Assembly: GCA_032718475.1 (NCBI GenBank)
Contig: JAUCBJ010007629.1
Coordinates: 107,047 to 171,046, forward strand
DNA from: Nemertoderma westbladi
Lineage: Eukaryota > Animalia > Xenacoelomorpha
Direction: 5' to 3'
DNA: 64,000 nucleotides
The notes beneath the pieces were generated by a model. That model made no database searches, was not told the origin of the DNA, and saw only the letters and a list, made by a program, of their open reading frames with translations. This document shows, piece after piece, positions 14,590 to 58,797 of this stretch (its first letter is position 1; each line of letters opens with the position of its first letter). A program made the translations under genes and the position numbers.

Positions 14590-14591
14590 GT

Positions 14592-14987: not shown

Positions 14988-15089
14988 ATTAATATTATTT
15001 AAATGGCTTGTTAATTAATATAAAATAAACCAACAGGCGTTGTAATTAATCATTTAACTTTTGTTTATTTAAAAATATTATTCGATAAA

Positions 15090-15661: not shown

Positions 15662-16074
15662 GGTTTACTCAAAGCTTGTAATGTGATGGGATATAATATA
15701 ATTTTATTTTGGTGATGGTCTTGATGTTAATATAAAAATATAATAAAATATAATTTTTTTTACAACAAGTTCTCTAAAAAAGAATCAATTGCGCTAGGTT
15801 AACATACCCATTTAACAATATGATGTAGACGTAACATATACAGTAAGTATTCCCGATATCATTCTAATATAGTTGTACCGGTATCACGAAACAACCTTTA
15901 CATCGCAAACTAATAACACATACAGTAGTTGACCAGAGATATAACTTTAGTAATATTAGTCAGAAATGCAACATAATCTGTACAGGATGTAATGTTAACC
16001 TGTTGGTACCGGTACTGTTAAATTCAATAATTTAGTATAGGCCTATCCACAGCTGTCATCCACTTTATCAGTAC

Positions 16075-16860: not shown

Positions 16861-17449
16861 AGCATACTGCAGTCATGACCTGGATTGCACGCATGAGCCT
16901 CACATGCAGGGATTAGATCCCCTACCCAAACAATACAGTACTGCAGTACTGTCACTGTTGTTGTAACAGTATAGTCAGATAGAGCATACTGATTTCCTTC
17001 GATTAGCATTGTACTACAGTACTACAGTATTAATGTAACAGTACCTGCAGTAACAAACTAACCCAATGTATGCAATATCATGAGCCAGTTACAATCAGAT
17101 GTGTGCGCAGTCAACCACACTGCTGGGATGCAGTCAACCTCGCAACCAGCCTCGCAGCCAGCCTCGCAGCTACTGCCAGCTAGGATTGCAGTCAGCCTGT
17201 GAGAGTCATGCTTATTCAAACGAGGTTAGTTTTCCCTAACTACCGATAGATCGATTGAAAAATAATAATGTTTAATTTTCACCTTCTAATTACCAATATA
17301 TTCTACACCTAAAGTCACAACACCAAACATTAACAAATAATTAACCTGTTTACTAAATATAGGGTAATAAATGTGAAATTTGCTAGGTGAACACATTAAA
17401 GTACATTTACCGGTATGAAAGCAGCAAATGACTACGGTATTATTTATTC

Positions 17450-17839
17450 TTATTTTGCAATTATTAAAAATTTCAGGTTCATATATGACTTGAAGTTGTA
17501 CATATCAAAGACAACATAAAACCCGGTATTGTTTATCAATAACCTATAGACTCCAGAGTTAATACTAAAAATATAAGTACATAAATTAGCAGATTTTAAA
17601 ATCAAATTAATACTTGTTTTATCAAATATATTATTTTTTACTTTTTGGAAATTATACTTACTACCTAATAATGTAATACGACCATTTTTAAATATTAATA
17701 ATGTGGCACCAAATATCTTATATATAAACTGATTTGGTTTGAGTATGTGTTTACCAGATAATTGATTTTTTAATTCTTTCAAATTAATCGCTGACACTTG
17801 CTGGCAACTTACATTCTTATTAACTATCTGATAGTTCAT
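17450..17839 (-). CDS. TATA-box-binding-protein-like ORF (129 aa)
   Basis: YQIVNKNVS...INLKEL...IYKIFGATLLIFKNGRITLLGSK resembles one TBP repeat (IQNIVST...LDLKTI...TALIFSSGKMVCTGAK). A second repeat appears degenerate. The start overlaps the PolB stop. Confidence 0.6.
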   Translation of the reverse strand: MNYQIVNKNVSCQQVSAINLKELKNQLSGKHILKPNQFIYKIFGATLLIFKNGRITLLGSKYNFQKVKNNIFDKTSINLILKSANLCTYIFSINSGVYRLLINNTGFYVVFDMYNFKSYMNLKFLIIAK

Positions 17840-19081
17840 TGTTTTGTTCCCGATAAATAGGTATATTTATTTTATTTAGTGGTTTTACAACCTTTGTTTG
17901 ATAGTGACCCCAGGAAAGTGAATGATTTTTATTAACCCAATAAAGTTTATCATCAAATGCGCTGAGAGCAAACTTATCTCGTGCTATAGTGTACACTTTG
18001 TGTAATTGACTCTGAAATTGATGCGTTTCCTTAGAAATTTCTTCGTTATACTTATATGCTCTTAAATAATCTTTTTGGCAAATTTTTTTATCCACGACAG
18101 CTCTTGTTATTCTTTTTGCCCGTCCTATATTCGTTTCATTCCATTCCAAAATTGAATATAACTTTGGACATAAAAATACAGCTTGTTTAATCTCTCATGA
18201 GCACAACTCATCTTTACAGTAATAGAGTCTGGATTTATTTTTATTACTATAAAGCGGGTGATCCTTGGGGTAATTAGAGGTATCTAGAATATTATTTTTA
18301 ATTAAGGCTTTTAAGAAATTACTCTGCGATGTATTATAATAACAACCTATTAATGAGTCTGTATCTGATGCTACAATTTCAATTCGGCAGTTTAATTCTT
18401 TCTCAATAGGTAGTAATCTATCGTAGTACAGCTCATACATATCAAGTTTGGCTAAATCCAAGACAGTACTACCTACATAGACTGGTTTATCTAATGTCAC
18501 GCTGTCTTTCACTAATAAGTGTCCCGATAAGGAATTGTTTTAAATCATGAAATTTTCGTGATTTATACGTTTCACCAATTGATCGCATTTCTCATTGCTA
18601 TTAGCGATACGGAAATTACATCGGTCCCGTATCTTTTCTATTGACTTACCAAATAACGAGTTATTCAGCAGCTTTGCAACAGCTGTTTCAATATAAGTTT
18701 TTGCTAGTTGTCTTTGATTAATATTAAAATCTATATAGGGTTTAAATACAAAGTCTTGATGGAAAGAATACAATTTATGGAGCTTAGTACCAATTAAACC
18801 TTGTTTTATATAAAATTTTAGCAGTTTTAAATGTACATGATAGAATTCTTTATCGAATTGTGTCAACATAAGTTTTGGTGCACACATCTTATACTTGCTA
18901 TTAGTACCTCTTTGTTTACATACATTATTAAATTGATCTTTCATATGTGGTAAAGCATTGTCTCATTTATACTTAAATGTTCTGGGGCTAAGGGTAGTTC
19001 TAATGTACGATCATGAATATCTTTGAGATATTTCAAATCGCAAATTAAGAAAAACCCAATATCCCCTTCAGTATCAAGATT
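17820..19081 (-). pseudogene. polB: Protein-primed family B DNA polymerase (C-terminal half), frameshifted
   Basis: GFFLICDLKY..IHD...LPLAPEH, PYIDFN, KLLNNSLFGKSIE (motif B), KPVYVGSTVLDLAK, SDTDSL (motif C), DTSNYPKDHPLYS, ALSAFDDK. Confidence 0.92.
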
Positions 19082-31425: not shown

Positions 31426-34079
31426 CTAATCTCTAATAAGGAATTCTACCCCCCCCCCCCCCCCCCCCTCCTTACTTTCGGACTAACAATTAGTAAATTG
31501 TGGATTTCAGTTTCCAACAATTCCATTTAAATCGCACTCTTATATGAACAGAACTTCACAGTCTAGTCCAATATTAAAATTGTTTGTGAATTCGAATTGT
31601 TTGTGAAACTATATGTTTCATCATAATATGAATTTTTTTACAGCTTTGATATTATACTGACATCGTAGATGTTACTGAAAGATGGCACAACCGAATTTTA
31701 TTTAGTATGTATAGGCCCTAGCCAGCAAACTTGTGGTGCTGTATGTTGGTACAGTACATTAATAGTTGTTATGGGTAAAATTAATTATTGCGGAATTTCA
31801 GAACAGTAATAATATTAATAATGTTAATAACCTACTGTATTAGGTTTATGATGTTTAGGATGCATATTTGGTGTACAGAATCGATAATGGATATACTCTG
31901 TGTTCCTATTAAAGTACTGATAATGTAATAATATATATGATTATTGCTTATTTGGTTTTTTTTAATAATATAAATAAGATATTAATTATTATAAAACAAA
32001 GAATCTTAATAATGAAATTATTAAGAGTTAATTAAGCCACCGCAAACTGACGTTACAAGGCGGGAAATTTGAGACTACTACTAAGACAAACACAGTAACA
32101 TGGACTGGCAGACATGAGTGTGGTTCTATGTACTAATACAGTAATGCGATATTTGTGTAAGTATTTGGGGAGTATCAAGAGAGGTGGGAGAGGCTGATTT
32201 TCCTCTATTGCTGCTGGCTTTTCTATTCCTCCGTTTCTATACCGACCACCCCCCCCCCCCCCCCCCCCCCTCTCTGTCTACCACCCTCCCTCCCCTAGCA
32301 CCCGCACCCCTTGTTGTATAGTGAACTAGAATTATATTGGGTGATGGTTGTTTTATATTTGTTGTCCGTTTATGTAAGTTGTATTTTGGTTTGTTTATGT
32401 AGAAGTACAGTTTTCGTACATAGCCCGACTCGACTGACATTGCGCGTTGTTTTATTACTCACAGCCCCATTCCACTGGCCACTTTTTCTTGTTTGTTCAA
32501 ACTTTAAACTTACTAATAATGCATTATATTGTTTGCAAGCCAGTAACAACCAAATGTTTCTACATTATCCGACAAAATGTGGCGGATAGCCACAACAAAC
32601 CATATTCAAAATTTTCACGTTTTATTATGGTTCTTATTGGTTTGCAAACAGTACCCAGTGGCATCCAGTGTATGTTTTATTAGCCACAGTAGTATATTCA
32701 ATTACCTTCCAACCATCTTCCATATCGATCCTTCTTTGCGGTGATATAGAGAGTAACCCTGGCCCGCTCTCTGTATGGCACCATAATGTCCGCAGCCTTT
32801 TACCAAAATTAAATAACAAAATCTGCACTGACAAGTTAAAAATAATTTACGACACTATCTTAGATTTAAATATTGATATTTTTATTGTAACGGAAACATG
32901 GTTTTTAAAATGTACGGCAGCTGACCATGAAAGTGAGCTGAACAAACACTCTTATAAATACTATGACAAACCCCGCGCTGACAACTCGGGGTACGGTGGT
33001 GTCGGGTTATTTATCAGGGAGTCATTACCCCATCTCAGACGCACTGGCAGGGCCTTTAACTCGCAAGGTCTAGAATTAATATTTATTGATATTTTCATCG
33101 TAAAATTAAAAGTTCTCGTGATTGGTCTTTACACACCCACCGAACCTACTGCACAGTACTGGGATACCTTGTACGATGTTATTTGTAACATCACGACAGC
33201 GTATAAATATGATGGAATTCTTCTTTTAGGTGACTTTAATACCAACTGTTTTCACCAAACTCCTTTTCTAGTAAACAAATTCTGCTCTTTAACTGGTTTT
33301 ACCCAAGTGATAAACTCTATAACTCGATCCCAATCCCAATCTTGCATTGACTTATTATTCACTAATTTACTTCCCCTGAAAATTAAGGCGGACGCACATG
33401 CTGATATTTGTTTTGACAACAACCTTCCTATTTCTGACCACTCGCCAATTTTTATCGACTTAAACGTTGATATCAAACCGCCACCCCTTTTCATTCGTAC
33501 CGTATGGGATTATGACAAAGCGAACTGGGGAGAATTCAGACAATTCCTAAATAGCAAATGTCTTAGTAGCTACTTTGGTGCACATGCCGATGACCCTGTT
33601 GAAGGTGTTAATTTTCTCACAGAGACTTTACTTGAAGGTACGAATAGATTTATTCCCAGCCACAAAATAAAAACCAGATCCAGCGACCCTAAGTGGATAA
33701 ATAATGAGTTGCGCTCACTGTTCAGGCGCAGGGAAAGGCTACACAAACGAGCCAAAGGGACACCCAACAACTCAAATCAATGGGTCAATTTCAGAAAATA
33801 TCGAAATTTTGTCACTCAAAAAGTTCGCTTAGCTAAGGCTTCATATTCTAGTGAATTGTATTTATCAACCAAAAGTTCCAGCAACTTAGACTCTAAGAAA
33901 TGGTTTTCAATAGTAAAGTCGGTACTGGGGAAAAACAAATTATCATCCATCCCGTTCTTATTTGATGGTGATACAGCGGTGTATGAAGCCTTTGACAAAG
34001 CCCAAGTTCTAAATAACAGATTTGTCATTAATTCCACTTTACCAGGTTTATTACCGACGACCCCAGTACAATCCACACC

Positions 34080-35140
34080 TCAGACAGCACCACCGCTAGT
34101 ACATCCCACACACCAGCCTGTACCACCGGTGGTACTTTCTGTAGTACCTCCAGTGCTTCACCACATACCCCCGACTGTACCACTGGTAGTACATCCCACA
34201 CCTCCGATTGTACCTCCAGCAGTGCACCCCATACCCCAGACTGTACCACCGGTTGTACATCCCACACCTCCGATTGTACCTCCAGCAGTGCACCCCATAC
34301 CCCAGACTGTACCACCGGTAGTACATCCCACACCTCCGATTGTACCTCCAGCAGTGCACCCCATACCCCAGACTGTACCACCGGTAGTACATCCCACACC
34401 TCCGATTGTACCTCCAGCAGTGCACCCCATACCCCAGACTGTACCACCGGTGGTACATCCCACACCTCCGATTGTACCTCCAGCAGTGCACCCCATACCC
34501 CAGACTGTACCACCGGTAGTACATCCCACACCTCCGACTGTACCTCCAGCAGTGCACCCCATACCCCAGACTGTACCACCGGTGGTACATACCACACCTC
34601 CGATTGTACTTCCAGCAGTGCACCCCATACCCCAGACTGTACCACCGGTAGTACATTCCACACCTCCGACTGTACCTCCAGCAGTGCACCCCATACCCCA
34701 GACTGTACCACCGGTAGTACATCCCACACCTCCGATTGTACCTCCAGCAGTGCACCCCATATCCCTGACTGTACCACCGGTAGTACATCCCACACCTCCG
34801 ATTGTACCTCCAGCAGTGCACCCCATACCTCAGACTGTACCACCGGTAGTACATCCCACACCTCCGACTGTACCTCCAGCAGTGCACCCCATACCCCAGA
34901 CTGTACCACCGGTAGTACATCCCACACCTCCGACTGTACCTCCAGCAGTGCACCCCATATCCCTGACTGTACCACCGGTAGTACATCCCACACCTCCGAT
35001 TGTACCTCCAGCAGTGCACCCCATACCTCAGACTGTACCATCGGTGCTACATCCTGTAGTGCCCCCAGTGCTTTATCCCATACCACAGACTGTACCATCG
35101 GTGGTATATCCCGTGGAGCCTGCAGCGGTACATCCCATAC
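34080..35140 (+). repeat. 60-bp coding minisatellite (two 30-bp subunits) inside LINE ORF2
   Basis: About 14 homogeneous units encoding PPIVPPAVHPIPQTVPPVVHPT-like repeats, with degenerate flanking units. Confidence 0.95.
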
Positions 35141-36573
35141 CACAATCTTTACCCCCGACCTCACTACACCCCAACCCCTCTACTCTTCAGGGCTTCCCTG
35201 AAGAGGCAGTCCTAGAGCACATACAGATTTCAGAAGAGGACGTACGTGCAGGTACTGTATTTCATCCTTAAAAACGAATGGATCTCCTGGTATCGATGGA
35301 ATAAGTAACAGAGTTATTAAATCATTATCCGGCTCTTTAATAGTCGGTCTAACTATTTTATTTAACGCGTTACTTAACATTTCTATTTTTCCACAATCTG
35401 GAAGTATTCTAATATTACTCCAATTTTTAAAAAGGGAGAATTTTATAATTCTGGCAACTATTGCCCAATTTCTTTATTAAATAACCTTTCTAAGCTTTTT
35501 GAAACTGTTGTCAGAAAGCATATCTGGAATTTCCTATGGCATAAAATATCGAAACGACAATCAGGATTTATTCCCGGCGATAGTTGCCAAAACCAACTTC
35601 TCTTCCTATAGGACTCCTGGTGCCAGGCCTGGGACGAAGGCAACGTCACACAAGTAATATTCTGTGATGTCACAAAAGCCTTTGACAGGGTATGGCACGC
35701 AGGTCTCCTTGAAAAATTATATAGAATGGGAAACCGCGGTCGCTTATTGGCATGGTTCCAATGTTATTTATCAGGGCGTTGGCAGCGTGTAGTACTAGAT
35801 GGGACATGCTCACTGTTTCTGGCGGTGCTCGCTGGCGTACCCCAGGAAAGTCTGCTCGGTCCATCTTATTTTTTATTTACATAAATGACCTTGTTGATGT
35901 ATTGTCGGCAAACTGTTCACTGTTTGCTGACGATACATCTCTTTCATCTAGAATCATTCATCCTGTTGTGCGCGTTCACTTTCTTAACCACGACTTCATG
36001 AACTACACACTTGGGCTACTAAATGGCTCGTAACTTTTAACCCAGAGAAAACCATTGTAATGACTATGTGTGGTTCCATCCCCTACCAGACAGTGTCACT
36101 ACATCTAAATGGCAAGGCCCTTCCGTGTGGTGAGACTCACAAACACCTGGGACTGGTATTTTCTTCCAATTTCAAGTTCAATGACCATGTCCTAGAACTA
36201 ATTAACTCAGTTTTGAGAAATCTATTGGTTCTGCGGAAAACTAAATACGTCCTATCCAAAGATGCAATACTAAAAATATACAAAACATTTATACGTCCTA
36301 AACTGGAATACGGCTGTGCGGTCTGGAACAACATATCTCAAGAAATGTCTGAACTACTTGACAATTTTGAACTTGAAATTCTAAGAATTGCCACTGGTGC
36401 TCCATCTCGCACTTCACATAGCAAGTTATATACCGAATGCAACATACAGAGTCTCTCTTCCAGGCGCTCAGCCATCTGCTTAATAACTTTTTATAAAATT
36501 ATTAACAAGTTAACTCCGGAGTACTTATTTTCCAGAATCCCAATTACAGTAGGGCAAAACCCATCACATAGTT

Positions 36574-36701
36574 CAAGCAAAGCAAACAGTCGGCCGAAGC
36601 CAGAGGCGACCCAAAGGCTCCTCTTTCGATAGCTGCTACCCGAGGGTAGGGGTGGGCGCTACTCCTATCCCAAGATTTGCTCCCAGTTATTTAACTGGTA
36701 T
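36574..36701 (-). mobile_element. Short retroposon (SINE 3' end) inserted in ORF2 with an 11-bp TSD
   Basis: ATCACATAGTT is duplicated at 36563 and 36702. Removing the insert restores GQNPSHSYPLRN. The minus strand ends in a (TTTGC)n-like tail. Confidence 0.8.
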
Positions 36702-42785: not shown

Positions 42786-43295
42786 GAGAAAAACACTTCC
42801 TGTACGAGCCCACACTTTATACAGTGTAATAACAGTTTTATTGTAATTATATGTTACACACAGTTATTAATTAGAGACAATCACAGAATGCAAATATTAA
42901 CGAGTGGGAGACACTCGTCAGAAATAGTGTTTCCACCACGGCTATTTCTCTATCCCCGCTCTCTGGGGGGAAAGAGTCAACACTGGGGCCATAATGGAAA
43001 AACTACTTTGTCTTATCAATTATCATCTCTGCCATTCCATGTGGCGCGTGCGGTGGCATTCTGTGATTGGCTCGCTCCTTCCTACATTACAAACCCATCA
43101 CCATTAACCAAATAATAACATCCCTAGTACTAGTTGGGAGATTGCCAAGATGCCCTTACTTCGATTTCCTACTTATATTATTAATATTGAATCTAAAGTC
43201 GTTATATTGAATGGGGCGAGCCTTAAGGTCCTTTACAACGTTTTGAGAGAGGATAAAACTACTTTGTTATATATATCATCATTTCTTTCGTTACA
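42786..43295 (-). repeat. 3' LTR of element C (distal end truncated)
   Basis: Matches 53858-54367 and starts TGTAACG on minus just after the PPT. Confidence 0.92.
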
Positions 43296-43755
43296 AACTC
43301 CCCCCAAAGTTAAGCTTGCTAAACTTTCAACAACAAAAAAAACAAAGAAATGATTTTGTACCAAAACTATAAAACCACCTCATGTTAGGATCAATTAAAT
43401 TTAGCAATGATTACATTAGATATACCACACCACACTATATATATTTTGTTTATTTTCATGGCTTCCAGCCAGTCAACTATTTGCCAACAAGGATGGTAAA
43501 CTTCCATGAACATTTCTTGGGGCCCATGTCGCCTACTGGTTTCATTTCGCTCACGCAAAATGATAAAAACTTTTACAAAATTCAACGACCAAAGGCTAAA
43601 GGCTTGCAGCAGTAGGACAAAACTCAGTCCAAAATAACAACTAAAATTAACAAAGGGATTAAGTAAAGAGCTGACAACTCATCGCTGTTATCACTATTGG
43701 TGTCATTTAAATTCCGTATGAGTCCGCTTTCGTCAAGGTATCCTTGGCAACTTGG

Positions 43756-44218
43756 TCATACTCCCGCGTACCCGCTAGTCTCCACCATATATCTCTGGGG
43801 ACCGACGTCGGCCCGTACAGCCACCAGGGTTATAATCGTCAAACGGCCGTATACCCGAGTACAGGGAGCGAGGGTGTACATATTCGCAAACTTCCAATAG
43901 AACGTGGACTCCATAGGATTCCTGGTAATCCGCCGCCTCATCCCGCGCGTATTCCACGAGCATTAAATAGTCTGTTAGTAACCCAGCGACCGAGGCACCA
44001 ACACCTTCCTCTAGGTGGAACAGACGGGTTATCGACTGCACATCCGTTTCGTGGAGTTTCGATTGGATGAATTTCTCGACGGCCAGAATGACTCCATCGG
44101 TTCCCCGTAACGCCACGATAGTGCCGTTATTCTCCACCGCTTTCTGAGCGTACTCCACTTGGAAAACTTTACCATCCAGAGAGAACTGCGACGCAGAAAG
44201 ATCGTAATCTGATCCCAT
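43756..44218 (-). pseudogene. PSMA3: Captured 20S proteasome subunit alpha type-3 (alpha-7)-like sequence, intronless, frameshifted near codon 127 and lacking the C-terminal third
   Basis: YDLSASQFSLDGKVFQVEYAQKAVEN (alpha N-terminal signature), DGVILAVEK, SKL, VAGLL, ARDEA, LYSGIRPF. It continues in another frame as GPQRYMVETSG. Confidence 0.9.
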
Positions 44219-44930
44219 TAACTCATATCATATCGTAATATAACTGGTACATAAAATCTTTACTTAATCAAAGTTAATAATTTAATTTACTAATTTACAG
44301 TAAAAGTTAAAGACCTACTAATCTACAATTATTATACACCACGTATCGGTACATTTAGTGATTAAATTAAATTTCTCGAAATATTTAAGTTAATTTTAAT
44401 TTATTTATGTTACTTTTTTACACACAAATATATAAACTCATTCACAAACATAATATCCAGATCACGGATGGGAGACTTTAAGAGCCCGCTCCCCCCATGT
44501 TCCTAGGACCTCCGTTAATTTATGGTTAATTTAACCGTTTAAAATCCCCAGGGACATCTCCCTACTGTTTTGGGAAATTAAATAAGGTTCCTCCGTGTTT
44601 CAACGGAGCCATATGAATGGGTCTTATTCATACCTGCCCATAATGGGATAGTTCTGTCTGTCGTTATTGACAAAACACTTAGTTTAATTTAATTAATTAA
44701 TTCATTCATCATACATTCATAATCATAAATTATTCAAATGTTATTAATATTATTTAATATCACCACTATTTAGGCCTATTATATTAATTTCGCATCACAT
44801 CACTCAAACTCACATTCATTCTAATTTAATAATTATTTTATTTCAAAAAATATGAAATCGAGAAACATAATTTAAAAACTATTGATCTACATACTAAATC
44901 ATATACCCTCCCCCCTTATGTTACGAGATT

Positions 44931-47077
44931 TTAAATACCTTGCTCAAGCAAGCAACATTTGTTTACTGGTCTTTTCACTGTCTTTTTACCACTGTTTACA
45001 GTTTTTAATTCGACGGTCCGGACATGGCCGTCCGACCCTGCGAAAGTATTTATGACCCTCGCTAATTCCCAGTCGTATTTAGATAAAGTATCTTCTGTCA
45101 CCAGTACGAGATCGCCTGGTTTCAAGTCACGGCGTTCTGTGCGCCATTTTTGTCTAAAGTGGAGGGTTGGGAGATATTCCAAGATCCATTGTTTCCAGAA
45201 TATTCGACTAATCTCTTGGAGAACCTTCCACTGCTTCCTGCTATACAAATCATTCTTGTCAAACAGATTTCGGTTTATTATCTGAACTGGTTTACCCATC
45301 ATCAAGTGGCTGGGTGTAAGCACTTCGTAAGAAGAAGGATCGTCGGTTGTCACGCTAAGTGGACGTGAGTTCATAACGTTTTCTGCCTCAGCAAAAACTG
45401 TACGCATTTCATCTTCATCTATACATCTGTTTCTAGTCGAAACCTCAATAATACGTTTACAACTGCTTACCAGTCGTTCCCAAACGCCTGAAGAGTGTAT
45501 GGATGTGATAAGGGGTATGGAAGTGCCACTCAATCTCCTTGCTGTTTGCCATAGCTCTAACTTCTGATGATCTGACAGCCTGATATAACTTTTTTAATTC
45601 CTGGCTGGCACCAACGAAGTTTGTACCATTATCGGAACTTATTATCTTTATTCCACCGAACCTAGAACTAAATTGACGGAGCGCGTTTATGAATGCGCTA
45701 GCGCTAGCATCTTTAATTAACTCAAGGGCTAAAGCTCTTGTGGTATAACACACGAAGATGCCTCCCCATCTCTTCTCGTACCTCCTCCCTACTTTAACAT
45801 TTATGGGACCAAACAAATCTACACCCGCATTGGTAAACGCTGGTTGGAATGCAGTTACTCGTCCAGGCGGTAGCGGCGACATTATTTGTTGAACTCGTTC
45901 TCTTTTGATACCCCGGCAAGTCACACATTTTGCCACATAACCTTTAATACGATGTCGCACTGCAGGTATCCAATATTTTTGACGTATTCGCGATATCGTA
46001 GCCTCCACACCACCATGTAACACCGTACGATGTGCTCCCGCTATGATTTTACCAACTATAATTGAATCCTTAGGTATTATTATGGGACTTTTTGACACTA
46101 TCCCGCTGGGCGCATTTAATAGACGCGATCCTAAACAAATTAAACCGTCCCTCATAATGGGACTGAATGTTCGTAGGTTACTGTCATGGCGTATTGTCTT
46201 TCCTGCCGTTAACAAGTTCACATCGGATTTGAAACCCTCTCTCTGGGCATGCTGCAATATTGCCCACTCTGCCCCCTTAATATCAATCACAGGCTTTGTT
46301 GAACGATTCATACGGAAACGCACCAGTGCTCGTAGGTATGCTACGTGTTTGCAAGTTTGATACCAAGTGTCATCATAACAAAGGACTTGTTCAGTAGGGG
46401 TAACAACATCAGTTAAAGTGTTTACCACACCTTTCTTTAATTCAATCACATCAGGGATATTGGAATTTGTGGGAAATGTTGGCCATTCGGCTTTGTTAGG
46501 TAAGAAAGGCGGACCATGTTGCCATAAATTCTTGTCTTTCTTGAAATGAACTCCACTAACTCCTCTGGACAACATATCTGCCGGGTTTAACTCTGTAGGG
46601 CAGTAATGCCAACTATCCAACTTAGTCGTTTCTTTAATTTCTGCTGCACGGTTGGCAACAAAGGTTTTAAACCTGCGTGATTCATTTTGAATATAATGGA
46701 TGACAGTTGTAGAAACCGTCCAATAATGAGCAGGTCCAGGCATTCGTAATGCGAGTTTAATTTGTCATAGTATTCGAGTCCCTAAAAGTGCTGCCATAAG
46801 CTCCAAACGTGGTGTACGAACTATTTTCAAAGGAGTAGCCCTAGCTTTACTATAAGCCAGTCTTGTATCTCGTCTTCCTTCAGTCTGGGCAATATATATA
46901 GCAGCGCCATAACCTTCATCTGAAGCGTCGCTAAACACATGTGCCTCAATCGCTGTCATAACTCCATCAGAGAAATATGGCCTGGGGATACTTACACGCT
47001 CCAGCTGTCGCAAACTATTTATCCACGCCTCCCATCGGGTTTGGATATACTCTGGAAGGTGTTCTTCCCAACCTACC
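44931..47077 (-). pseudogene. pol: Element C RNase H and integrase, frameshifted
   Basis: HVFSDAS..GYGA, PRLELMAA, NPADMLSRG, HHCC (AHRTVLHGG...CVTC), GVDLFGP, SDNGTNF, GVWERLV, NSRPL, DGHVRTV. Confidence 0.93.
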
Positions 47078-48276
47078 TGTTCGCGCTTTTAGACCTTTAG
47101 CAGTTTAACCCGCTAATTTTAAGTGTCTTTTAGTTTATAAATCGACTTTAGCCTATGACAAGTATTTGTTACAAATAAACACTACATTAGCCGAAGCCAG
47201 CCGATGCGCGATCATTCACCCGCTGGATATACCCGGAGGCTGGATTCGGATGCTTTGACCTTATTGCGGTGTAAGCCTACTGTATTATTCGATTGATTGT
47301 TAATATAATCTCTGACAAATATTATTCACTTTCGGGAAATATTAACAGTTCCTTTAGGACGTGGCACTCTAAATATGTAAACAGAGTTATGACTTATTCT
47401 AATCACAACGGTACGGCTTATAATTCACGTATAAGGCGCATTCTTTAGGAGATGCTTAGTTATCAGTCACTCTTGCACACTACCGATACCGCACAACTGC
47501 ACACTGATCTGCCGACAGTCACTGAATTTGACCATACATAAAGAGAACAGCAATTGACTCCTGTAGTGCCTATCAAATAGCATTAGATTCACTACAAACC
47601 ACAATAATGTAAGTCGCAATTGCTATATGTAACCGGTCTCTCTAACCTTTAGTGTATCAAGAAGATTGGGGTTTTATGATTATTTATCGATATTCTCCGA
47701 ATATAACAATATTCCATCAACTGATACAATTAATAACCGACAGTAAATAGCAGTAAAATAATGCGGTGTAAGTAAGTTAAGATATGCACTGTTTTGTATG
47801 GTATGATAAGTGAGTTGAGTTTTGAGTTGATAACAGTTATACGTTTCTATAATCAAAGCCTACTAATGTTTTGCTAAAGTCTGAAAACAGAATAATTCCA
47901 CAGCCGATGTTCTGGCATAGGAAAAAACCAACACACACTGAACCCTGTGGGCCATTGCAGGTATCTTTCAACACAAGAGAAACAGCTCTCATTGGCAGAG
48001 CTCCATATTCCACAGATTCCATGAATGTCTAAATGCCGAACTATTCGGGTTTTTGCAGTCCTTAGCCAACACACCGGATGAATCACTCTGCTTGGTTGAC
48101 CGTTGCTCTGGTTGGTTGATCGAACAGAACAAAGAGGCCATACGTACAGCAAATCAGCCAATCAGCCGGTAGCTTGCATCCTTTGAGTTAGGGAGTTTTT
48201 TAGAGTATTTGAGCGCCTTGGGGGAATCTGGATTGCGAAGCAAAAGGGCCAGTTATATCCCACAAAAGCTTTTACA
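47078..48276 (-). mobile_element. Family A solo LTR (1199 bp) with 5-bp TSD CTACC
   Basis: TG...CA termini, CTACC at 47073-47077 and 48277-48281. Removing it restores ILQVGWEEHLP in the element C pol. Confidence 0.93.
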
Positions 48277-49726
48277 CTACCTGCAGAATGTAAACTTCTC
48301 TCAGAATCTGCCTACCAACCAGCGTAATGGGTGCAAGCAGGCCAAGTGGGTCATATATCCTCGCAATGAAGGATAAATAAGAATGTTTGGTATGTAAAAT
48401 AGTGTCAGTAGGTTCCAAGACATATTCAAAGGTATCAAGTGGCCGATTCCACAATATACCTAAAGCCCTGGATTCTCCACTGTCCGACATACCTTTAAGA
48501 ATGGGTTCCCTAGACTCAGCAATGCCACTGGGAAGGTCGCGGTTTTCATTTTGACCTTTTGACAGATCCTCTGATCCAATTGGACTCACAATTTGATCAG
48601 ACATAACCTTCATGAAGGTTTCAGAATTTGATATGAACTTATGTAATTTGAAACCACCCTTCTGAAGGCAATCTCTCGCTCCTTTAGCCATAATTATAAT
48701 TTCAGTTTCCGTATTCTTAGAAGCCATGCCATCATCGACATAAAAATCATTGGTAATCATGTCCCTCACCTCTGCCGTACAAGTATCGGCCTGATCAATG
48801 GGAACTTGTCTCATCGACATTGTAGTGGTGCAAGATGAATCTTTAGCCCCAAACATGTGCACCAGCATTTTAAAAACAGTTACTGGTACCTTTTCATCAA
48901 GGTTGTCTTCCTCACACCAGAGGAAACGAAGGCTCTCTGTATCTTCTGGATACACCTTCACCTGGTGGAACATTGCTTCCACGTCACACGTGAAAGAAAA
49001 AATCCCACTCCTAAATCTCAATAAAACATCAAGACCAGTATTGAAAATATTTGGCCCTTCAACTAAATAATCATTAAGACTCCAGCCTAAATAGGTCGCT
49101 GCCGCATCATTAACCAGGCGTATCTTTCCCTTCCGCTCTTCCCATACTACATGTAGAGGAAGATAATAAGTTCTAGGAGTTTCTGGTGTTCCCACTGGAA
49201 CCCTTACCGCCCATCCTTTATCCAGATACTTTTCAATGACAGCCTGAATAGCTGCGTGTTGTCCCGGTATTTTATGAACCTTTTGCTTAAGTTTCCTTAA
49301 TCGATTTTCTACCATCGTTCTATTGTTTATTAAAGGTTCCCCGGGATTTTTCCATAACATTTTAGTTTGATAATGACCATCGACAAAACGAATTGAATCT
49401 TTTATAGTCTGTAAAGCTCTATTATCCTCTGGAGAGTTTGCCAAAGTTGAATCGCAAAGCCCCTCACAATCTTGGTTGAAAAGGAATTCCAGATCTCGTT
49501 CGGTTCCAACATAATTAACTGACCCAGTCTTTACTTTATGGTAACATAGCTTGCTGTGAGAATCCACATGATTCGTTACTGCAGCTGCATTGGCTTCTTC
49601 TTTTGACAGGGTACATTTTGGCTGAATTATTGGATCCGTTTGAGTAACAGAATTTATAGGACCCATTACTACCCATCCAAATGGTGTTCGTTCTGCTTTC
49701 CAGTTCACTTCCCCATCTTTCCTCAA
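48277..49726 (-). pseudogene. pol: Element C reverse transcriptase
   Basis: YYLPLH, KIRLVNDAA, SLNDYLVEGP, DVEAMFHQV, FGAKDS, FYVDDG, IYDPLGLLAP. Confidence 0.93.
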
Positions 49727-52700
49727 ATACTCGATGGGCTAATAAATTATCTACCCCGATTAGTACAGTAACTTTAGGGATATCTACAGGTGGATGTTCA
49801 AACAATATATTTTGTAAGTGCGAGTATTGTCGAACTTCTGTTTCATTAGGACTCGACCCAATAACTCCCAGATTTGGAATTACTGTTGCATTAGATAATT
49901 TCATCGAAAAACGATTTCCTTTATGTACTGAGTTAAATTGACAGCTCACCATGGTAGCAGTTGTGTTTGTATGTTTGTTTCTCAAAGTTGCTAAATCTAA
50001 ATTATATTTTTCTCCCTTAAGATTTAATCTATCACTCACTTCCTTATCAATTAGGGTCAAGGTAGATCCAAGGTCTAAAAGGGCATATGTACTTACCCCA
50101 TTGTTACCCGAACTGACATTGATGGGGACTATTTTTAAATAAACCTTTCTCAGATTTACAGTCATACAAATCAAAGAGTGAGCTGTCAAGTTATTTATTT
50201 TAGCCAGGGAATTATCCACCTTGGAAATATTATCTACATTTTGAATTCTTTCCTGTTCGGGTTTAATACTAAAGGCATCAATTCTTTGCCTCTGATACTC
50301 TATGGGGCCACAATCCTGGGCATTGTCTCTAAAATCACTAGACCCACTCCTGCGGTATCCAGCTGCTGGGGACCTAGATAGACTGTGATTTGGAGTCCAC
50401 CTTCTAGAATTCCACCAGTTGAAACAATTTCGGCCAATATGTCCAGTGGAGAGGCAAAAACGGAACAATCTGTTCTCCCTTATGTAATCCCATTGCTCAT
50501 TCTCTGGTGCACTCCGCCACTGATCACACTCAACCGTCGTATGAAAGTTATTGTTTGGATGAAGACGACATCGTGAGTTTAAATCACATGTATTCAAATG
50601 CGATCTCTGGTTAGAATGTTCCGTACGAGATTTCGATGGTAATTGTTCAATACTAAATGTGACTTGTCTTTTAATAGAAGGTTTAGCGGCATTACTAAAC
50701 CCACCGGATGCTACAAACACATTGGATTTCACAGAGTTTCCTTTTGATTCAAAAGCTCTCCTTGGAATATCTTCTCGGGATCTCCGATAATTTTCCTCCC
50801 TTTTGTCCACTGGTTTTACTCGATTAGTGCGAAAACGTTCCTCACTGTATATAGGATCATTCATAATCTCAGCTTGATCTTCCAAACAACTCAGTTCAAA
50901 CAACTGCAGTTCCCGGTTATACCTACTCCTAATTGTCGCTGCAGTTTTCCTCCATTTTCCCCTGGCCCAATAAGGGAGAACCTCTACTAGCTGTCGCATA
51001 TTATTATGTGAATTAAGTTCATGCGGCATGCTTAATTCAGTAAGGGCCACCAATGCTTTATTCACTTTATCAGAAAAATCTCTAAAATTATCTTTTGTTT
51101 TAATTTCGTTATTATCAACAAGTCTATCGATAGTAACCTGGACAATCAATCCCGGATTTCCATAACGCTTTTCTAAAGCGCTCCATGCTAAAGAAAATCC
51201 GTCCGTCAGCCCAGCATAATGTCGAACGACTTGATGCGCCTTACCTTTAGTATAAGCCAAAAGATAATTCATCTTTCTGACCATGAAAATATTTTTATTT
51301 AATATTTCCTCGGTGTAAAGATGCCGAAACTGTATATATTCTTCCGGCTCTTCACCGTCAAAGGTAAAGGGTTCTATATTTGGAAGCTCCAGTTTCATTT
51401 TAAGGGCTTCCACTACAGCGTCAATTAGATTATGGCTTGGTTCATTTAAACTGACTACCGGTACATCATTTGGCCTACCTCTACCACCATTATTTAAGTT
51501 ATCCCCGGATCCTTCTCCAGGATCCCCCCAACCAGATCCTCCATTGCCTCCGGGTTGTCCAGCGTTTCCTACATAGACCCGCGTTTCATTTTCATCTATA
51601 ACTCCAGCTCCAGGAGGTTTACTAACCCTAGGCCCATTAGGCCTACATCCCCCCAAGGTTGGATATTTTAACCCTTCGAAACTTTGACCGGTAATAGGCC
51701 TACTTATATTACTTACATTTAATGGTACTGAAAAGCCTGCCTGTTGGTCTACTGATGGCCTACCTGACATACCTGTATGTTGACTACCAGTAGGCCTATA
51801 TATTGCAGTATTCGCGGTACCGGTAGCATTGCTAGGCCTACCGCCTACATTTATCTTCCTATCCAGGCCTACACCAACCGGTACTTCATAACTGGTTCCC
51901 AAATGCCTACTGCTACTACTGTATTGGGGTACATACCTGCCCAATGGAATAAAAGTATCTGCTAAAGGGTTTCTTCCTAACGGTACCGGTACCTTACTTG
52001 ACTTAGCGCTTACCGGTACTGCTAGCCCCAGCTCTAATTTAGGCCTACTGCTTTCACCTTGGCCTACCACCGGTACGGGTGCAGTTATTGGTAATACATT
52101 TTGCGCAGGCCTACTTGTATCGTGATGTGCTACCGGTACCAGTACTTTACCCGAAAATCGATTTAAACACTGAGAATCATATTGCTCAGCCTCAGATGAT
52201 TGGGTTACCGGTACAGGTTCCTCACATTCACTAACTGCATCATCATATGTACTCAGGCCTACAGGGTGACGGCTATGGTCATCTACAGTATAATACTGTA
52301 CATTTTCATAATTCCTATCGATACCTGATTTCTGATTAGGCCTATTTATTGTACTCTTTGGTTGCAATACAAAACCGTCACTGGAATTAGATCTTGGCCT
52401 AGCATTACTAGCACCCCTATCACAACCTTGCAGTTGGTTCTGTGTTTTGATTGGTTGATAAATATCTGCATTATGTAAAATATTTTCAATTTCACCCGCC
52501 CCTTTATTTGGTGTAGTAAATGTCCTTGGAATAAATCCTACTGTACCTGGGGGATTTGTTAGTTTGTGGTACATTGGCGTTTCACGGGTCAAGACACTGT
52601 CAATCTCTGGGATGCGGTTTACATAGGTTAATGTGTCCATAGTAACCATTTCCCTCGGTTGGGTTTGTTTGCCACTACTAGTCTCGGATTGCAATTGGGA

Positions 52701-53772
52701 TATATAATTTTCAGCCTCTATTAATTTAATTTCTCTGGCTATTTTGTCACACTCATCTTGTTCCTCACGCTCTCGTCTACGTTCCTTACGTTCCCATTCT
52801 ATTTTGTTTTCCCGATCTTTAAGGGCCTTTATTTTATCCTCTCTCTCTACCTGCTGCCTATACCTAATTATCTCTGAGGAACGGGTAGATCCCGCAGCAG
52901 ACCTAAGCTTACTTCCCCCCAGATAATCCCCTTGGTTACTCACATCAATTTGTGATACCGAATCTTCTGGGTTCAAGAGAGGAATTTTGCCTTCGGCCAT
53001 TGCTAGGGGTTGTATCCCTTCCTCGTTTCCTACTAGGGCATTTTGGCTTTCCCCGACAGCGCTTGGAGAGGTACTTCTGCGGATCTCCTCCAGGTGGGTT
53101 TTAACCCTTGCTTGGATTTCCTGCGACCGCGATACCTCTCCACACGCAACTAAATGCCTACAGTACCTATTAATAAAGTCATAATCCTCACCATTTTGCG
53201 CCGAGTCACTAGGAGTTACCATAGTTTGAATTCCAAATAACCTTCGTTCAGGCCTCTTGAATCTTTGATGGACTTCTATTGGTTCCATAGTCTCCTCTAG
53301 CAGCACGTTGCCTCTGCGGGATGTCTTTGGTCGCACATCTGGATCTGATGACATCCGCCCCTCCAGACTCTGTTGAAACGTCAAAGTTCCTTGTTGAACC
53401 GTTGTTACCCCCTGCCCCAATGAAGGGTTTAAGTCTTGGGGCGCAATGGGTACAGTAGATTTATACCCAGGTTTCGCAGCATTCGCCCCCCCCAAATTCC
53501 GAGATTACATTGCTTCTTCCCTGTATCCCGATTAATGATGGTCTCGGTTTCTGTTTTAGACTTTCAATTCTCCTTATGGGTTCACTTCTGGGTGGTGGGG
53601 GTGTACGGGCAATTTCTCGCCCTTTAGCAATCCGTCCATCGTTGTCTAAGACTTTCCGAGATTGTCCCAAAAGAAATTCTCCCTCGTTTCCGATAGGTGG
53701 CGCTCCGTGAGAAAACTTTCCCGTTCCATTCGCCTCACTCATCGTGCGAATATTATTTCCTCCAGATTTCAA
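49536..53772 (-). pseudogene. gag: Element C Gag-protease (frameshifts near 53490 and 49715; protease DSG changed to DLG)
   Basis: LPNIEPFTFDGE...LEKRYGN capsid block, degenerate Zn knuckles, YALLDLGS and VLIGVDN. Confidence 0.88.
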
Positions 53773-53822: not shown

Positions 53823-54367
53823 TGTTGTGGAGAATCTTCCTAGCCACTTTTTACTTGGAGAAAAACACTTCCTGTACGAGCCCACACTTTATACAGTGTA
53901 ATAACAGTTTTTTTGTAATTATATGTTACACACAGTTATTAATTAGAGACAATCACAGAATGCAAATATTAACGAGTGGGAGACACTCATCAGAAATAGT
54001 GTTTCCACCACGGCTATTTCTCTATCCCCGCTCTCTGGGGGGAAAGAGTCAACACTGGGGCCATAATGGAAAAACTACTTTGTCTTATCAATTATCATCT
54101 CTGCCATTCCATGTGGCGCGGGCGGTGGCATTCTGTGATTGGCTCGCTCCTTCCTACATTACAAACCCATCACCATTAACCAAATAATAACATCCCTAGT
54201 ACTAGTTGGGAGATTGCCAAGATGCCCTTACTTCGATTTCCTACTTATATTATTAATATTGAATCTAAAGTCGTTATATTGAATGGGGCGAGCCTTAAGG
54301 TCCTTTACAACGTTTTGAGAGAGTATAAAACTACTTTGTTATATATATCATCATTTCTTTCGTTACA
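53823..54367 (-). repeat. 5' LTR of element C
   Basis: TGTAACG start on minus; identity to the 3' LTR from 53858. The end at ...CAACA (53823) is inferred. Confidence 0.85.
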
Positions 54368-57300
54368 ATGATATAAACGTTTTAGGGATTTTATGGGTTT
54401 TAGATTGTGAGGACATTAATCCAGACACTCCCAAAATTCAAGCATATCGATATACGAGGGCGCTCTTTGGCTTAACCTCATCACCCGGGATTTTAGGAAT
54501 AATAATAAAAGAACACTTAAAATCAGAAAGTGTTATTGCATCACCAGTTGGTTTGATTGCAATAAAGAAATTAGCTGATCTAGTTGTAGATGATTTATGC
54601 ACAGGAGTACACACAGTCACGGAAGGCATCCAATTGCAAAAATAATGCACTGAAATATTAGACCGTGCTCACCTTAAAATTCGTCGTTGGAAGACTAACA
54701 ATGTCGAACTTCAGCGTTTATTTGATCAAGCAACACAAGTCGAATCGATCACAACTACTGACAAAACAATCAAATAAACCTATATAAATTGTTGAGGATA
54801 CACAAACATATACTAAGTCTACACTAGGTCTGTCACTAAACCAAACAAATAATACAACCAGGGGGGTATTAGGCCAAGTATGGCATTTAGAAGATGATAC
54901 ATTTGGTTATGACGTCACATCTGTGTACAAATATGTTAAACAATTAAAGGTCACTAAACGTGCTGTATTACAATTAGGCGCAAGAATATATAATCCCACA
55001 TTTATTTTTTCTCCTTTTACAGCCCCCATTAAAGAGATATTTCAGAAACTGTGTTCTGATAAATCAGACTGGGATTCACCATTGTGTCCAGAATTGTTAC
55101 CTCTATGGCATTCATGGGTTAACAATTTATATGCGTTAAATAACATAAGCTTCCCAAGATACTATTTCAATCTTGGAAAAACAATAAAGACATTACAATT
55201 ACACGTTCGTGGGGACTTATTTACCTGAGAGCCGTTTACACAGATAACACCATAACAGTTACTCTAGTTACCAGTAAAACTAAAGTTACGCCACTGTCAA
55301 AACCATCTGCACCGCATTCTAAACCATCCACACCGAGACTAGAGTTACTTGGAACTTACATACTGAGTGACTTAGCACACTCAGTTTACACTACACTGAA
55401 GTTAATCGATTACGATTGCCAGGTCCTTTTATGGACAGATGCAAAGGATGTACTCTACTGGATTTTGAACAAACACAAAGTTTACAAACAATTTGTTCAG
55501 AACCGCTTGACAGCTATTAGATCCCATACGGATAGCATCCACGCAACTTGGTGATTTTGTCCAGGTCAATCTAACCCTGCAGACATACCCACACGAGGAA
55601 TGTCAATCAAATAGTTGTCGAAAGCTACACTCTGGTTCAATGGACCACAATTTCTCTCACAGGAGGTAGAAACATGGCCAATTAATATTACAATAAAACA
55701 AAGTGATGTAAGCAGTGATTGCTTAAAAGAAATATGACAAGCAATTCGTACATCACACACTTTAACAACAGTTGTTTCAGTTAGTCCACCCTCATTACTC
55801 AATGTGTATGATTACACAAAATACAGCTCAAAGTTAACTGTAATCCGTATATTAGGTTGGATTCTGCGCTTTATTAAAACCGGTAAATCAAAAGTAAAGA
55901 GGCAGCAATTAAAAATGGAGTGTATATTAGAATGTAGGGAATTAAACATCGCTCACCAAACCATGTTGAAAGTATGCCAACAAACCCACTACTTTACCGA
56001 ACTTAACTACCTTCATCACTCACAGGGAAATAAATGCCCTAATATAGTGAAACAGCTGAATTTGTTTATTGATTCAGAAGGTTTACTCCGTGCGTAGGGA
56101 CGAATGACAAGTCCAGTAGTACCTTGGCATACAAAAAAAACCCTATATTACTTCCCCCTACTGATCATTATACTAAGCTGTTAATACGCAGTGCACACAA
56201 AGATGTCAATCATTCAAGGGTGAGAAGTACACTCGCACAAATACCCGAACAATTCTGGATTCCTCGCGCATGTCAAATTATTAAAACAACAATACACAAT
56301 TGTTCAATTTGCAAGAGAATACAAGGGAACCCATACACATCACCCCCCATTAGCCCCTTGCCTATAGAAAGAACAGCAGAACTACCAGCATTTAGTCACG
56401 TAGGAATTGATTTCTGTGGACCTCTGAAAGTAGTCCGCACTTTGTCAGACCCCGAAGGATCTACTATGAAAGTCTATGTGTGCTTATTTACATGTACTGT
56501 AGTTAGAGCAGTACACTTAGAAACTGTAACCAGTTTACAAGTAAAATCATTTCTTCTCGCATTTAACAGATTCATAAGTCGGCGAGGAGTTCCTTCACAT
56601 ATCTTTAGTGATAAACGCTAGTACATTTAACCCTATTAAACCTGGGGGGGGGGGGGGTCAATATGACCCCTCCCGTGGTTTTTTTATTATAATTTTGAAA
56701 CAAACGCAGTTGGGAATCTGAAATTTTATGACTTTTCCTAAAAATCTATTGTCTTCCTAGTAGTGAAAACCGTTTTCAAAAATATTGGGTACTTTTCGAG
56801 TTATAGCGCCATTTTTTAACCCTACTTTTGGCACTTTTTTGAGACGTTTTTTGAAAATTACATTTCATTAAATATGAATTGTAACATCTCTATTTTTTAT
56901 TTACACGGGTTTTTTGGTGTTAGAAATTTGATGGAATTCATATAAATTGATTTAGAAATTTTAAACTTGTTTTTTTCGGTGGGTGCCAAATTTTGGTGCC
57001 AGCACCAAATTTTGAAATAAGTCAATTTTGTAAATTGATCGTTTGAAACTTGTTTTTTACGCAATTTGGTTTTTTTGGGTTTCTGGATTAGAAGAAATAT
57101 ATACGAGTTGCACCAAGCGTATCAAACTTGTATTTTTCGGTGCTGTGTGCATATTTTGGTGCTAGCACGAAACTTTGAAAATCCATTCAATAGATAAAAT
57201 TGCTTGTGAGAATTTATTTCTTGCGTTTTAGAGGTTTATGGCTGTTCTGAATTCAATGGAAAATATAATTATCGAACTAGACATCTCAAACTTGTATTTT

Positions 57301-58797
57301 TCGGATGTGGGTGCAAAATATGGTGCTAGCACCAAATTTTGAAAACCATCAAATATATCAATTGATTGTGTCACCTTGTTTCTTGCGTTATACGGGTTTG
57401 TGATGGTTCTGAATTCAATGGAATCAGTAAAAATTTCATAAGAGTTGTCAAACTTGTATTTTTCGCCGGTGGGTGAAAATTGTTGTGCCAGCACCAAATT
57501 TTGGAAAATATGCAAATTGATAAGTAGATAGTATCACCTTGTTTCTTGCGTTATACGGGTTTATGAGGGTCCTGAATCCGATGGAATCAATAAAAACTGC
57601 ACTGGACATCGCAAACTTGTACTTTTTGGTGATGGGTACGAAATTTGGTGCTAGCACCAAAATTTGCCAAATTACGCCGAAAAATACAAGTAGCAATGAT
57701 CTAGCATATTAGAAATGTATTCCATTAGAATCAGCGCCCTCGAAAACCTGAAAATGTGAATTTATAGCATCGTATAAGTGAATTAAAAATTTTGTGTTCT
57801 AACTGAAAAGTGCTGGTTACTTGTTTTTTTCATTTTTTTCCTACGCAGAGAGGACTAAACAGCCATTTATAGTAATCATATAATTTTTGAATATTTTACA
57901 CCCCAGAAAACCTGTATTGAAAAATAATTAGCCGAAAATGTAACTTTCAAATTTGGTGAAAATTGTGCACTACTTGTAATTTTGGTGCTGCAATATAACC
58001 ACCCCAGTAAATTTTTTCGAAAATTTTTTTTTTCGGTCGGATCCAGACAAGTGATACCTACGTACAAACAAAAAATCAGACGTTTTCGTAAATATTTGTA
58101 GATTTTAGAGGGGGGGGGGGGGGGGTCAATATGACCCCCTCCCGGTATTTGTACAACATTTTATAGCCCAGTACTAATAGGGTTAAACGTTCTTCTCAAG
58201 ATTTCGATATATATAGAAAATTCTTACATAGTGATTTGGTAAAGAAGACTTTCGGAGACTTATCCATCACATGGCATTTCAATATTGAGAGATATCCTGC
58301 AGCTTACGGGTTCATTGAGAGATGTGTAGGTATCATAAAGGGAAATTTGAGAAAAATGATAGGAAGAGCTGTGTTGACAGATGAAGAGTTTCAAACAGTA
58401 CTAACTTCGTGCAAAGCTTCTGTAAACAGCCGTCCACTAACGTACATTTCGTCAGATAGCAATGATACTATCGATATTCTAACACCTAGCCATTTTCTTG
58501 TTGGGCGAAGAGTATGTGCACTTCCAGCACCAAACGTAAGATCGCTCAATTTAGAATTAACCAAGTCAAACCTCATTAACAGAACTCGCTATCAGGAAAT
58601 AGCCTCCAACTTTTTCTGGAGAAGTTGGAGAGTTCCGCGAGTTGGGGAGTTCCTTTACTTCCATCAGTAGGATATGTCTGTTTCCTATATGATCCAAAAT
58701 TACCTCGATTTTTATGGAAGTTATGCCAAGTCATAGAACTGGTCAAGAGTAGGGATGGCCTGGCCATATAAGGTCGGCAAAAATAAAAATAGCCAAT
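54368..58797 (+). pseudogene. pol: Decayed BEL/Pao pol (element D: RT-RH-IN), bounded by element C and a family A LTR and split by a MITE
   Basis: RALFGLTSSP, VVDDL, RIYNP, PRLELLG, NPADIPTRG, HVGIDFCGP, RAVHLE, FISRRG, NSRPLTY, LTPSHFL; many stops. Confidence 0.9.
56631..58182 (+). mobile_element. TTAA MITE copy 3, inserted into the element D integrase
   Basis: TTAA TSD on both sides. Removing it rejoins ...ASTFK|RSSQD. Confidence 0.92.

What the first reader, a model, noticed from the sequence alone, without database searches (positions are those of the whole stretch)
43296..44930. BEL/Pao retrotransposon carrying a proteasome alpha-7 (PSMA3-like) gene in the env/accessory slot
Seen: between the integrase stop (44931) and the PPT/3' LTR (43295) of a young element (about 4 LTR differences in ~510 bp) lies an intronless, same-strand ORF with its own ATG (44218). 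It reads MGSDYDLSASQFSLDGKVFQVEYAQKAVEN...LYSGIRPF. Established: this is the 20S proteasome alpha-subunit signature, with alpha-7/PSMA3-specific motifs (YDLSAS, LYSxxRPF). Alpha subunits form the gate, and alpha-7 binds substrates and viral proteins. Inference: the protein looks far more diverged from canonical PSMA3 than the LTRs are from each other, yet it stays stop-free for ~126 codons. The capture therefore probably predates this insertion and may have been carried as cargo. A truncated alpha subunit with the gate Pro altered (SPDG to SLDG) could act as a decoy or dominant-negative that protects Gag/Pol from degradation. I know of no described retrotransposon-borne proteasome subunit.
Basis: partly seen in the sequence, partly recalled or inferred. 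Interest (0 to 1): 0.88.

Follow-up and report, generated by a model that had tools for sequence, protein, structure and literature searches.

The report
Jumping gene carrying a proteasome fragment
A family of animal retrotransposons carries the front half of its host's proteasome alpha-7 gene and likely makes a separate RNA from it; the piece was likely once kept for its protein and is now likely decaying, so the proposed decoy role is unsupported.

Summary
A 147-codon alpha-7 (PSMA3)-type ORF lies between integrase and PPT/3' LTR of a BEL/Pao element whose LTRs differ at 4 of 511 sites. It is family-wide: in three DNA runs, high-depth contigs carry it, two join it to integrase, and cargo depth matches integrase depth. 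The likely donor is an intronless, itself divergent host alpha-7 gene, 87% identical; most of the distance from canonical PSMA3 is the host's own. One RNA-like run covers only 44314 to a poly(A) site in the 3' LTR, which suggests a separate spliced RNA. Donor versus cargo gives dN/dS 0.16-0.20 (9 N, 16 S), lower than expected if the cargo were neutral (p 0.012-0.045). Window copy versus family gives 0.65-0.77, not different from 1. The cargo has lost its native start, five codons and half the fold; the gate Pro-to-Leu change is a CpG transition. Best reading: a captured accessory gene, once constrained, now eroding. The decoy idea is untested and unsupported. Host-gene capture in this slot is known; a proteasome subunit was not found in my searches.

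The parts
53858..54367 (-). 5' LTR
   Evidence: 99.2% to 3' LTR over 511 nt; its copy of the poly(A) hexamer differs at one site
49536..53354 (-). gag-protease ORF, 1272 aa
   Evidence: PF03564 E 5e-15; weak PF13650
48272..49738 (-). RT part of pol, in another frame than gag, ends at an insertion
   Evidence: (PF05380)
47085..48270 (.). ~1.2 kb insertion in pol; part is ~79% alike to three other repeats in the window
   Evidence: edges approximate
44931..47088 (-). Pao RNase H region and integrase with C-terminal DUF5641; broken by a stop near 46767 and a frame change near 45500
44906..44917 (-). G-rich purine tract directly after the integrase stop; possibly the original PPT (inference)
44314..44316 (-). 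AG acceptor where the RNA-like contig of run X4 leaves the element sequence
   Evidence: loose end at 44303, no cover from 44317 on; the DNA shows AG there
44224..44252 (-). three upstream ATGs (44252, 44231, 44226) with short frames; 44226 matches the donor's start and is followed by a stop
   Evidence: no listed difference here in the high-depth contig of X1
43775..44218 (-). captured alpha-7 (PSMA3) ORF, 147 codons: 126 homologous, five-codon in-frame gap near codon 110, ~20 unrelated codons
43768..43840 (-). out-of-frame remnant of the next alpha-7 strands (donor residues ~133-156)
43298..43305 (-). PPT
   Evidence: sequence
42786..43295 (-). 3' LTR; poly(A) hexamer at 42842, poly(A) junction at 42803 in run X4

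Best explanation
A BEL/Pao family carries a truncated copy of a host proteasome alpha-7 gene behind its integrase, likely captured long before this insertion, likely expressed as its own spliced RNA, likely kept for its protein for part of that time, and now likely a decaying passenger. Steps. Shown: the cargo sits in the ORF3 slot, is shared by most copies, and is 87% identical to a host gene. Inferred: capture by RT template switching onto host RNA (a DNA-level capture is not excluded, because the donor has no intron here). Inferred from contigs of one run: an RNA from the acceptor at 44314 to the LTR poly(A) site, with ~47 nt of unknown origin in front. Inferred from dN/dS: constraint on the path between donor and cargo, read as a period in which a fuller alpha-7 copy served the element. 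Shown: before the present copies split, the native start, five codons and the C-terminal half were lost. Inferred: the remaining 147-aa product does not fold as an alpha subunit and is no longer selected.
For: Family-wide: X3 record 24 (44019-45600) and X2 record 16 (44134-45600) bridge ORF and integrase; cargo and integrase contig depths are alike (558/451, 199/165, 158/172); several different LTR-flank loose ends. Donor: 42, 38, 39 differences in 331 nt, no gap, in X1-X3; same letters at depth ~4500 in X4. RNA: X4 covers 42803-44303 only, with a 23-T end at 42803. Past constraint: 9 N / 16 S over codons 11-100, dN 0.046-0.049, dS 0.24-0.29; p 0.012-0.045 against a neutral cargo with equal synonymous change on both branches. 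Present decay: window vs family 11 N / 6 S, ratio 0.65-0.77, p 0.27-0.39; 3 of 3 family-private changes are non-synonymous, two at columns conserved in 113 and 106 of 116 animals; 7 of 17 are CpG losses in the window copy; substitution density in the ORF (17/444) is not below the 3' non-coding part (10/450).
Against: The pairwise ratio cannot place the constraint: it may all predate capture. Numbers are small (25 and 17 changes); a ratio of 0.7 on 17 changes does not exclude moderate selection. The ORF is open in all three versions seen, and 0 of 8 indel events between window and X1 contigs fall in it (p 0.075). The RNA reading rests on contigs of one run that the tool labels 'DNA?'; contigs cannot show start, strand or level. 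The low-confidence folds (mean pLDDT 40 and 46) have no full-length control.
Confidence: 0.45

Rival explanations
1. Neutral passenger from the start. The donor was a working alpha-7 copy that had already diverged from today's host gene (a lost paralog or retrogene, or the gene of a related species from which the element came); all constraint predates capture.
For: At most 9 amino-acid changes, three small lesions and a large loss on the stem fit a short neutral spell (884 of 5000 simulations stay open even after 37 changes). The four changes that can be placed on the cargo side include an invariant Pro (116 of 116) and two CpG losses. Partial, transcribed, re-amplified captures are the expected product of LTR-mediated retroposition (PMC5131818, abstract and Discussion).
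Against: Only one donor-like sequence was laid at 80% or more in four runs; a second donor or a transfer must be assumed.
Confidence: 0.28
2. Living accessory protein: the 147-aa half subunit is translated from its own RNA and binds alpha-ring intermediates or assembly chaperones, dampening proteasome supply and sparing Gag/Pol.
For: Own RNA-like contig; open frame in window, X1 and X4 versions; the one internal gap is in frame; no indel in the ORF against 8 beside it; low stem dN/dS.
Against: No constraint among recent copies; three upstream ATGs; only profile positions 2-103 of 189 are kept; no confident fold (no control); gate Pro change is a CpG transition.
Confidence: 0.17
3. The piece works as RNA: likeness to an essential host gene blunts silencing of the element, or yields small RNAs that touch the host gene.
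For: Such cross-talk is described for captured fragments in maize (10.1101/777037, abstract).
Against: Longest identical run between donor and high-depth cargo is 19 nt; the low dN/dS is a protein signal; CpG losses in the window copy suggest it was methylated.
Confidence: 0.07
4. Later retrocopy insertion into this one copy, or an assembly artefact.
For: The window copy is broken and has no target-site duplication.
Against: Independent contigs of two studies bridge cargo and integrase, ~3% diverged from the window, at integrase-like depth.
Confidence: 0.02

Closest known systems
LTR-mediated retroposition in animals (Tan et al. 2016, PMC5131818; abstract and Discussion read)
   Same: Partial host coding sequence inside an LTR element, sense strand, transcribed, re-amplified.
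   Different: There the retrocopy usually interrupts the element; here it sits behind a full gag-pol layout, is in most copies, and appears to have its own RNA. Microsimilarity at the junctions could not be tested.
ORF3 cargoes of bdelloid LTR retrotransposons: GDSL esterase, DEDDy exonuclease (PMC5408684; passages read)
   Same: Non-env extra ORF after pol; the paper says ORF3s are typically separate units from spliced messages.
   Different: Those keep their catalytic residues and lie in other lineages; 'proteasome' occurs 0 times in the text. This cargo is half a structural subunit.
Crocodilian ERV captures of KIT-ligand and nectin3 (PMC4299795; passages read)
   Same: Host mRNA in the env region, multi-copy, purifying selection against the host gene.
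   Different: Near full-length ORFs in retroviruses; here truncated, in a BEL/Pao element, with no constraint among recent copies.
Orchid Gypsy AlkB m6A demethylase (PMC9289625; passages read)
   Same: Host domain gained by an LTR element, with a counter-defence idea.
   Different: Activity was shown in vitro; nothing like it is shown here.
hAT-amplified histone H3 in fungi (PMC6710886; abstract read)
   Same: Housekeeping gene captured, amplified and then inactivated.
   Different: DNA transposon, RIP-driven decay.
BEL/Pao elements (PMC3118150; passages read)
   Same: gag-pol order, size, LTR length; a few members carry env.
   Different: No proteasome cargo mentioned (0 occurrences of 'proteasome').

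Membership tests
BEL/Pao LTR retrotransposon | Gag (DUF1759), protease, RT, Pao RNase H region (PF05380), integrase with DUF5641, in this order | tested here: met
   the copy is broken
BEL/Pao LTR retrotransposon | Paired LTRs beginning TG, PPT before the 3' LTR | tested here: met
BEL/Pao LTR retrotransposon | Target-site duplication | tested here: not met
   no 4-6 nt match at the plausible edges; bears on this copy's history, not on its class
20S proteasome alpha-7 (PSMA3) subunit | Alpha N-terminal signature and alpha-7 as best match | tested here: met
20S proteasome alpha-7 (PSMA3) subunit | Complete subunit domain (~250 aa) | tested here: not met
   PF00227 positions 2-103 of 189 only; middle part absent, C-terminal remnant not significant (42 of 510 tiles as high)
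20S proteasome alpha-7 (PSMA3) subunit | Invariant gate-region Pro | tested here: not met
   Pro in 116 of 116 animal proteins and in the donor, Leu in window and family
20S proteasome alpha-7 (PSMA3) subunit | Folds and joins the alpha ring | tested here: inconclusive
   mean pLDDT 39.6 and 45.9, no full-length control; binding not testable
Functional ORF3 accessory gene of LTR elements | Shared by the family in the slot after pol | tested here: met
Functional ORF3 accessory gene of LTR elements | Separate spliced, polyadenylated RNA | tested here: inconclusive
   contigs of one run fit it; upstream piece not found in the window; no raw reads
Functional ORF3 accessory gene of LTR elements | Purifying selection within the family | tested here: inconclusive
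   stem 0.16-0.20, recent copies 0.65-0.77 on 17 changes
LTR-mediated retrocopy | Loss of donor introns | tested here: inconclusive
   donor has no intron in the matched stretch; its DNA and RNA-like contigs show the same loose ends
LTR-mediated retrocopy | Microsimilarity at the switch points | not testable with these tools
   needs the full donor RNA and a cargo-free relative

The most novel reading that the evidence does not exclude
This BEL/Pao family has turned half of the host's proteasome alpha-7 subunit into a third gene with its own spliced RNA, whose product interferes with proteasome assembly to protect the element's proteins: a retrotransposon-borne anti-proteasome factor.
Probability: 0.17. 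Interest if true: 0.85.

Novelty: new variant of a known kind. Interest (0 to 1): 0.52.

Why it matters
Host genes fixed in the slot after pol point to the host pathways that limit a retrotransposon. A proteasome core subunit there, family-wide, apparently transcribed on its own and with low dN/dS against its donor, was not found in nine literature searches (open-access library only). Even as a remnant it is a testable case of capture, constraint and decay. If the short protein is made and binds the proteasome, it would be a new kind of transposon counter-defence.

Tried and rejected
No whole genome is held, so copies could not be counted or compared one by one. No RNA holder was listed; X4 is read as RNA from its pattern only. 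Protein searches found no close relative of the cargo or its donor (best 56-57%) and no fusion with element domains among the 120 best of 517 longer hits (weak). None of 80 metagenome loci with an alpha-subunit match had BEL pol nearby. The upstream piece of the X4 contig has no match in the window at up to 4 mismatches in 18 nt. A remnant of the last alpha-7 helix and acidic tail looked plausible by eye but is not significant. Likeness of the donor's 5' UTR to the cargo's upstream DNA is borderline (128 of 2000 shuffles, 50 of 1098 tiles): not used. Depth is not used as copy number: cargo/flank is 4.5-7.7, cargo/donor 7-40, inconsistent between runs. Earlier findings of the scan: nothing. The ESM Atlas did not answer; the representative-protein search had not finished. 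No complex prediction was sent. PMC12460157 (passages) holds no element-borne proteasome subunit; it is cited only to show that trans-splicing exists in some animals. bioRxiv supplements were not seen.

Full report
Observation. The element lies on the - strand between LTRs at 54367-53858 and 43295-42786, which differ at 4 of 511 sites. Gag (PF03564), the Pao region (PF05380), integrase (PF17921, PF00665) and DUF5641 follow in BEL/Pao order, and the named integrase relatives with PF05380/PF18701 are animal proteins, 27-47% identical. Between the integrase stop (44931) and the PPT lies an ORF of 147 codons, 44218-43775, with the proteasome alpha signature and alpha-7/PSMA3 as best match (E 3e-31). 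This copy's pol is broken at several places and holds a ~1.2 kb insertion; no target-site duplication was found.

The ORF is a cut-down piece. Homology ends at codon ~126. A profile of animal PSMA3 finds the next strands in another frame (9.6 bits, 1 of 510 tiles as high); the middle of the protein is absent and a C-terminal remnant is not significant. Five codons are missing near codon 110. The codon matching the donor's start is followed by a stop, and three ATGs precede the ORF's ATG. AlphaFold gave no confident model, alone or with 47 relatives (pLDDT 39.6, 45.9); there is no full-length control, so this is weak.

The cargo belongs to the family. No genome was held, so I laid contigs of 4 of the 6 listed runs. 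In X1-X3, contigs about 3% different from the window carry the cargo; X3 record 24 (44019-45600) and X2 record 16 (44134-45600) bridge ORF and integrase. Cargo and integrase contigs have like depth (558/451, 199/165, 158/172), several times that of the flank contig, and different sequences adjoin the LTR start. Depth is not a copy number, but the match suggests that most copies with this integrase have the cargo. The X1 contig has no gap in the ORF and no listed difference in the upstream ATGs, so the start loss, the five-codon gap, the truncation and the Pro-to-Leu change are older than the split of these copies.

The donor. A second sequence matches 43889-44219 without a gap at 87% (42, 38, 39 differences in X1-X3) and has the same letters as contigs of depth ~4500 in X4. 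Its loose ends are the same in X1 and X4, so it has no intron here. I read it as the host gene that gave the cargo or its nearest living relative (inference). It is divergent itself: median 62% identity to 116 animal PSMA3 proteins over codons 11-100, against 58% for the cargo and 80% among the animals (4 shorter hits of the 120 were left out). Whether it is the canonical alpha-7 or a paralog is open.

Expression. X4 is labelled 'DNA?' but behaves like RNA: no cover of flank or integrase, cover from 42803 to 44303, a 23-T end at 42803, 39 nt behind a poly(A) hexamer. Its element contig leaves the DNA at an AG (44316-44315) and has ~47 nt in front, the visible part of which is not in the window. 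This fits a spliced RNA for the cargo alone; the front piece may be a host exon, a spliced leader (trans-splicing occurs in some animals; PMC12460157, passages) or a DNA rearrangement in one copy. It is one run, contigs only.

Selection. One search listed 40 of 42 rows; 32 of the donor's 42 differences in X1 are listed, the rest lie mostly near contig ends, so I used codons 11-100 and left out one X4-only donor variant. Differences that separate the donor from both element versions are 9 N and 16 S: dN/dS 0.16-0.20, p 4e-5 to 3e-4 against 1. As the host branch is constrained anyway, the fair null is about 0.5; the count is still low (p 0.012-0.045). Window against X1 family contig, all 17 differences in the ORF: 11 N, 6 S, ratio 0.65-0.77, p 0.27-0.39. 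Window-private changes are 4 N / 3 S, family-private 3 N / 0 S. The two X4-private changes are printed as 0 N / 2 S, but one shares a codon with another change and is non-synonymous in context, so 1 N / 1 S. Seven of 17 differences are CpG losses in the window copy, and the gate Pro-to-Leu change is a CpG transition. An open frame after 17 random changes occurs in 2228 of 5000 trials; 0 of 8 indel events in the ORF has p 0.075. With dS 0.24-0.29 against 0.008 between LTRs, the split from the donor is far older than the LTR pair.

Mechanism. Most likely (0.45): host alpha-7 sequence was captured behind integrase, probably by template switching as in the model of Tan et al. (PMC5131818), gained or brought an acceptor, was constrained as protein for a time, then lost its start and half its fold, and now rides along in a separately processed RNA. 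Next (0.28): it never served the element, and the constraint belongs to a donor that had diverged before capture. An RNA-level role (0.07) is limited by identical runs of at most 19 nt. A one-copy insertion or artefact (0.02) is contradicted.

Known and new. It works like ORF3 capture in bdelloid LTR elements (PMC5408684, passages), host-mRNA capture in crocodilian ERVs (PMC4299795, passages) and the orchid Gypsy AlkB (PMC9289625, passages). It is a member of BEL/Pao by domains and LTRs; it is not a complete alpha-7 subunit; membership among functional ORF3 genes is undecided. Nine searches of the open library (listings and starts of abstracts, with passages, sections or abstracts of eight papers) showed no retrotransposon-borne proteasome subunit. 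That BEL/Pao equals Belpaoviridae is from the start of an abstract (PMC12440569). Verdict: real, family-wide, new cargo of a known kind; function now doubtful; interest 0.52.

Noticed in passing
window 13674-18962: Decayed Polinton- or adintovirus-like stretch (label recalled): adenovirus-type protease match at 14565-14984 + (PF00770, E 5e-4, below cut-off) and a TBP-like ORF at 17453-17866 - (PF00352, E 1.2e-4, just below cut-off); 5 other ORFs there had no Pfam match.
   Followed up: partly
host donor gene, laid on 43889-44219: The host alpha-7-like gene is intronless over about 120 codons and long-branched (median 62% to animal PSMA3); it may itself be a retrogene or a special paralog. Its contig depth varies oddly between DNA runs (15.3, 5.0, 21.9 against flank 123.6, 25.9, 24.7).
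   Followed up: partly
window 44906-44917 and 44307-44891: Second PPT-like tract after the integrase stop, followed by ~590 AT-rich nt with weak 21-24 nt repeats at its ends; could be an old LTR or small insertion, or chance.
   Followed up: partly
window 43824-43856: Unexplained joint in a contig of run X4 (table 5c).
   Followed up: no
window 54788-58667 and 771-11459: Further broken BEL/Pao-like pieces: pol at 54866-58628 + and a DUF1759 gag ORF at 2653-6513 -; no alpha-subunit match elsewhere in the window.
   Followed up: partly
window 32590-36629: LINE-like endonuclease ORF (PF03372) interrupted by a 33/66-nt tandem array at 34012-35169.
   Followed up: no
window 42786 and 54367: No target-site duplication; the two flanks may come from different insertions. 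The 3' junction is confirmed by contigs of X1-X3.
   Followed up: partly
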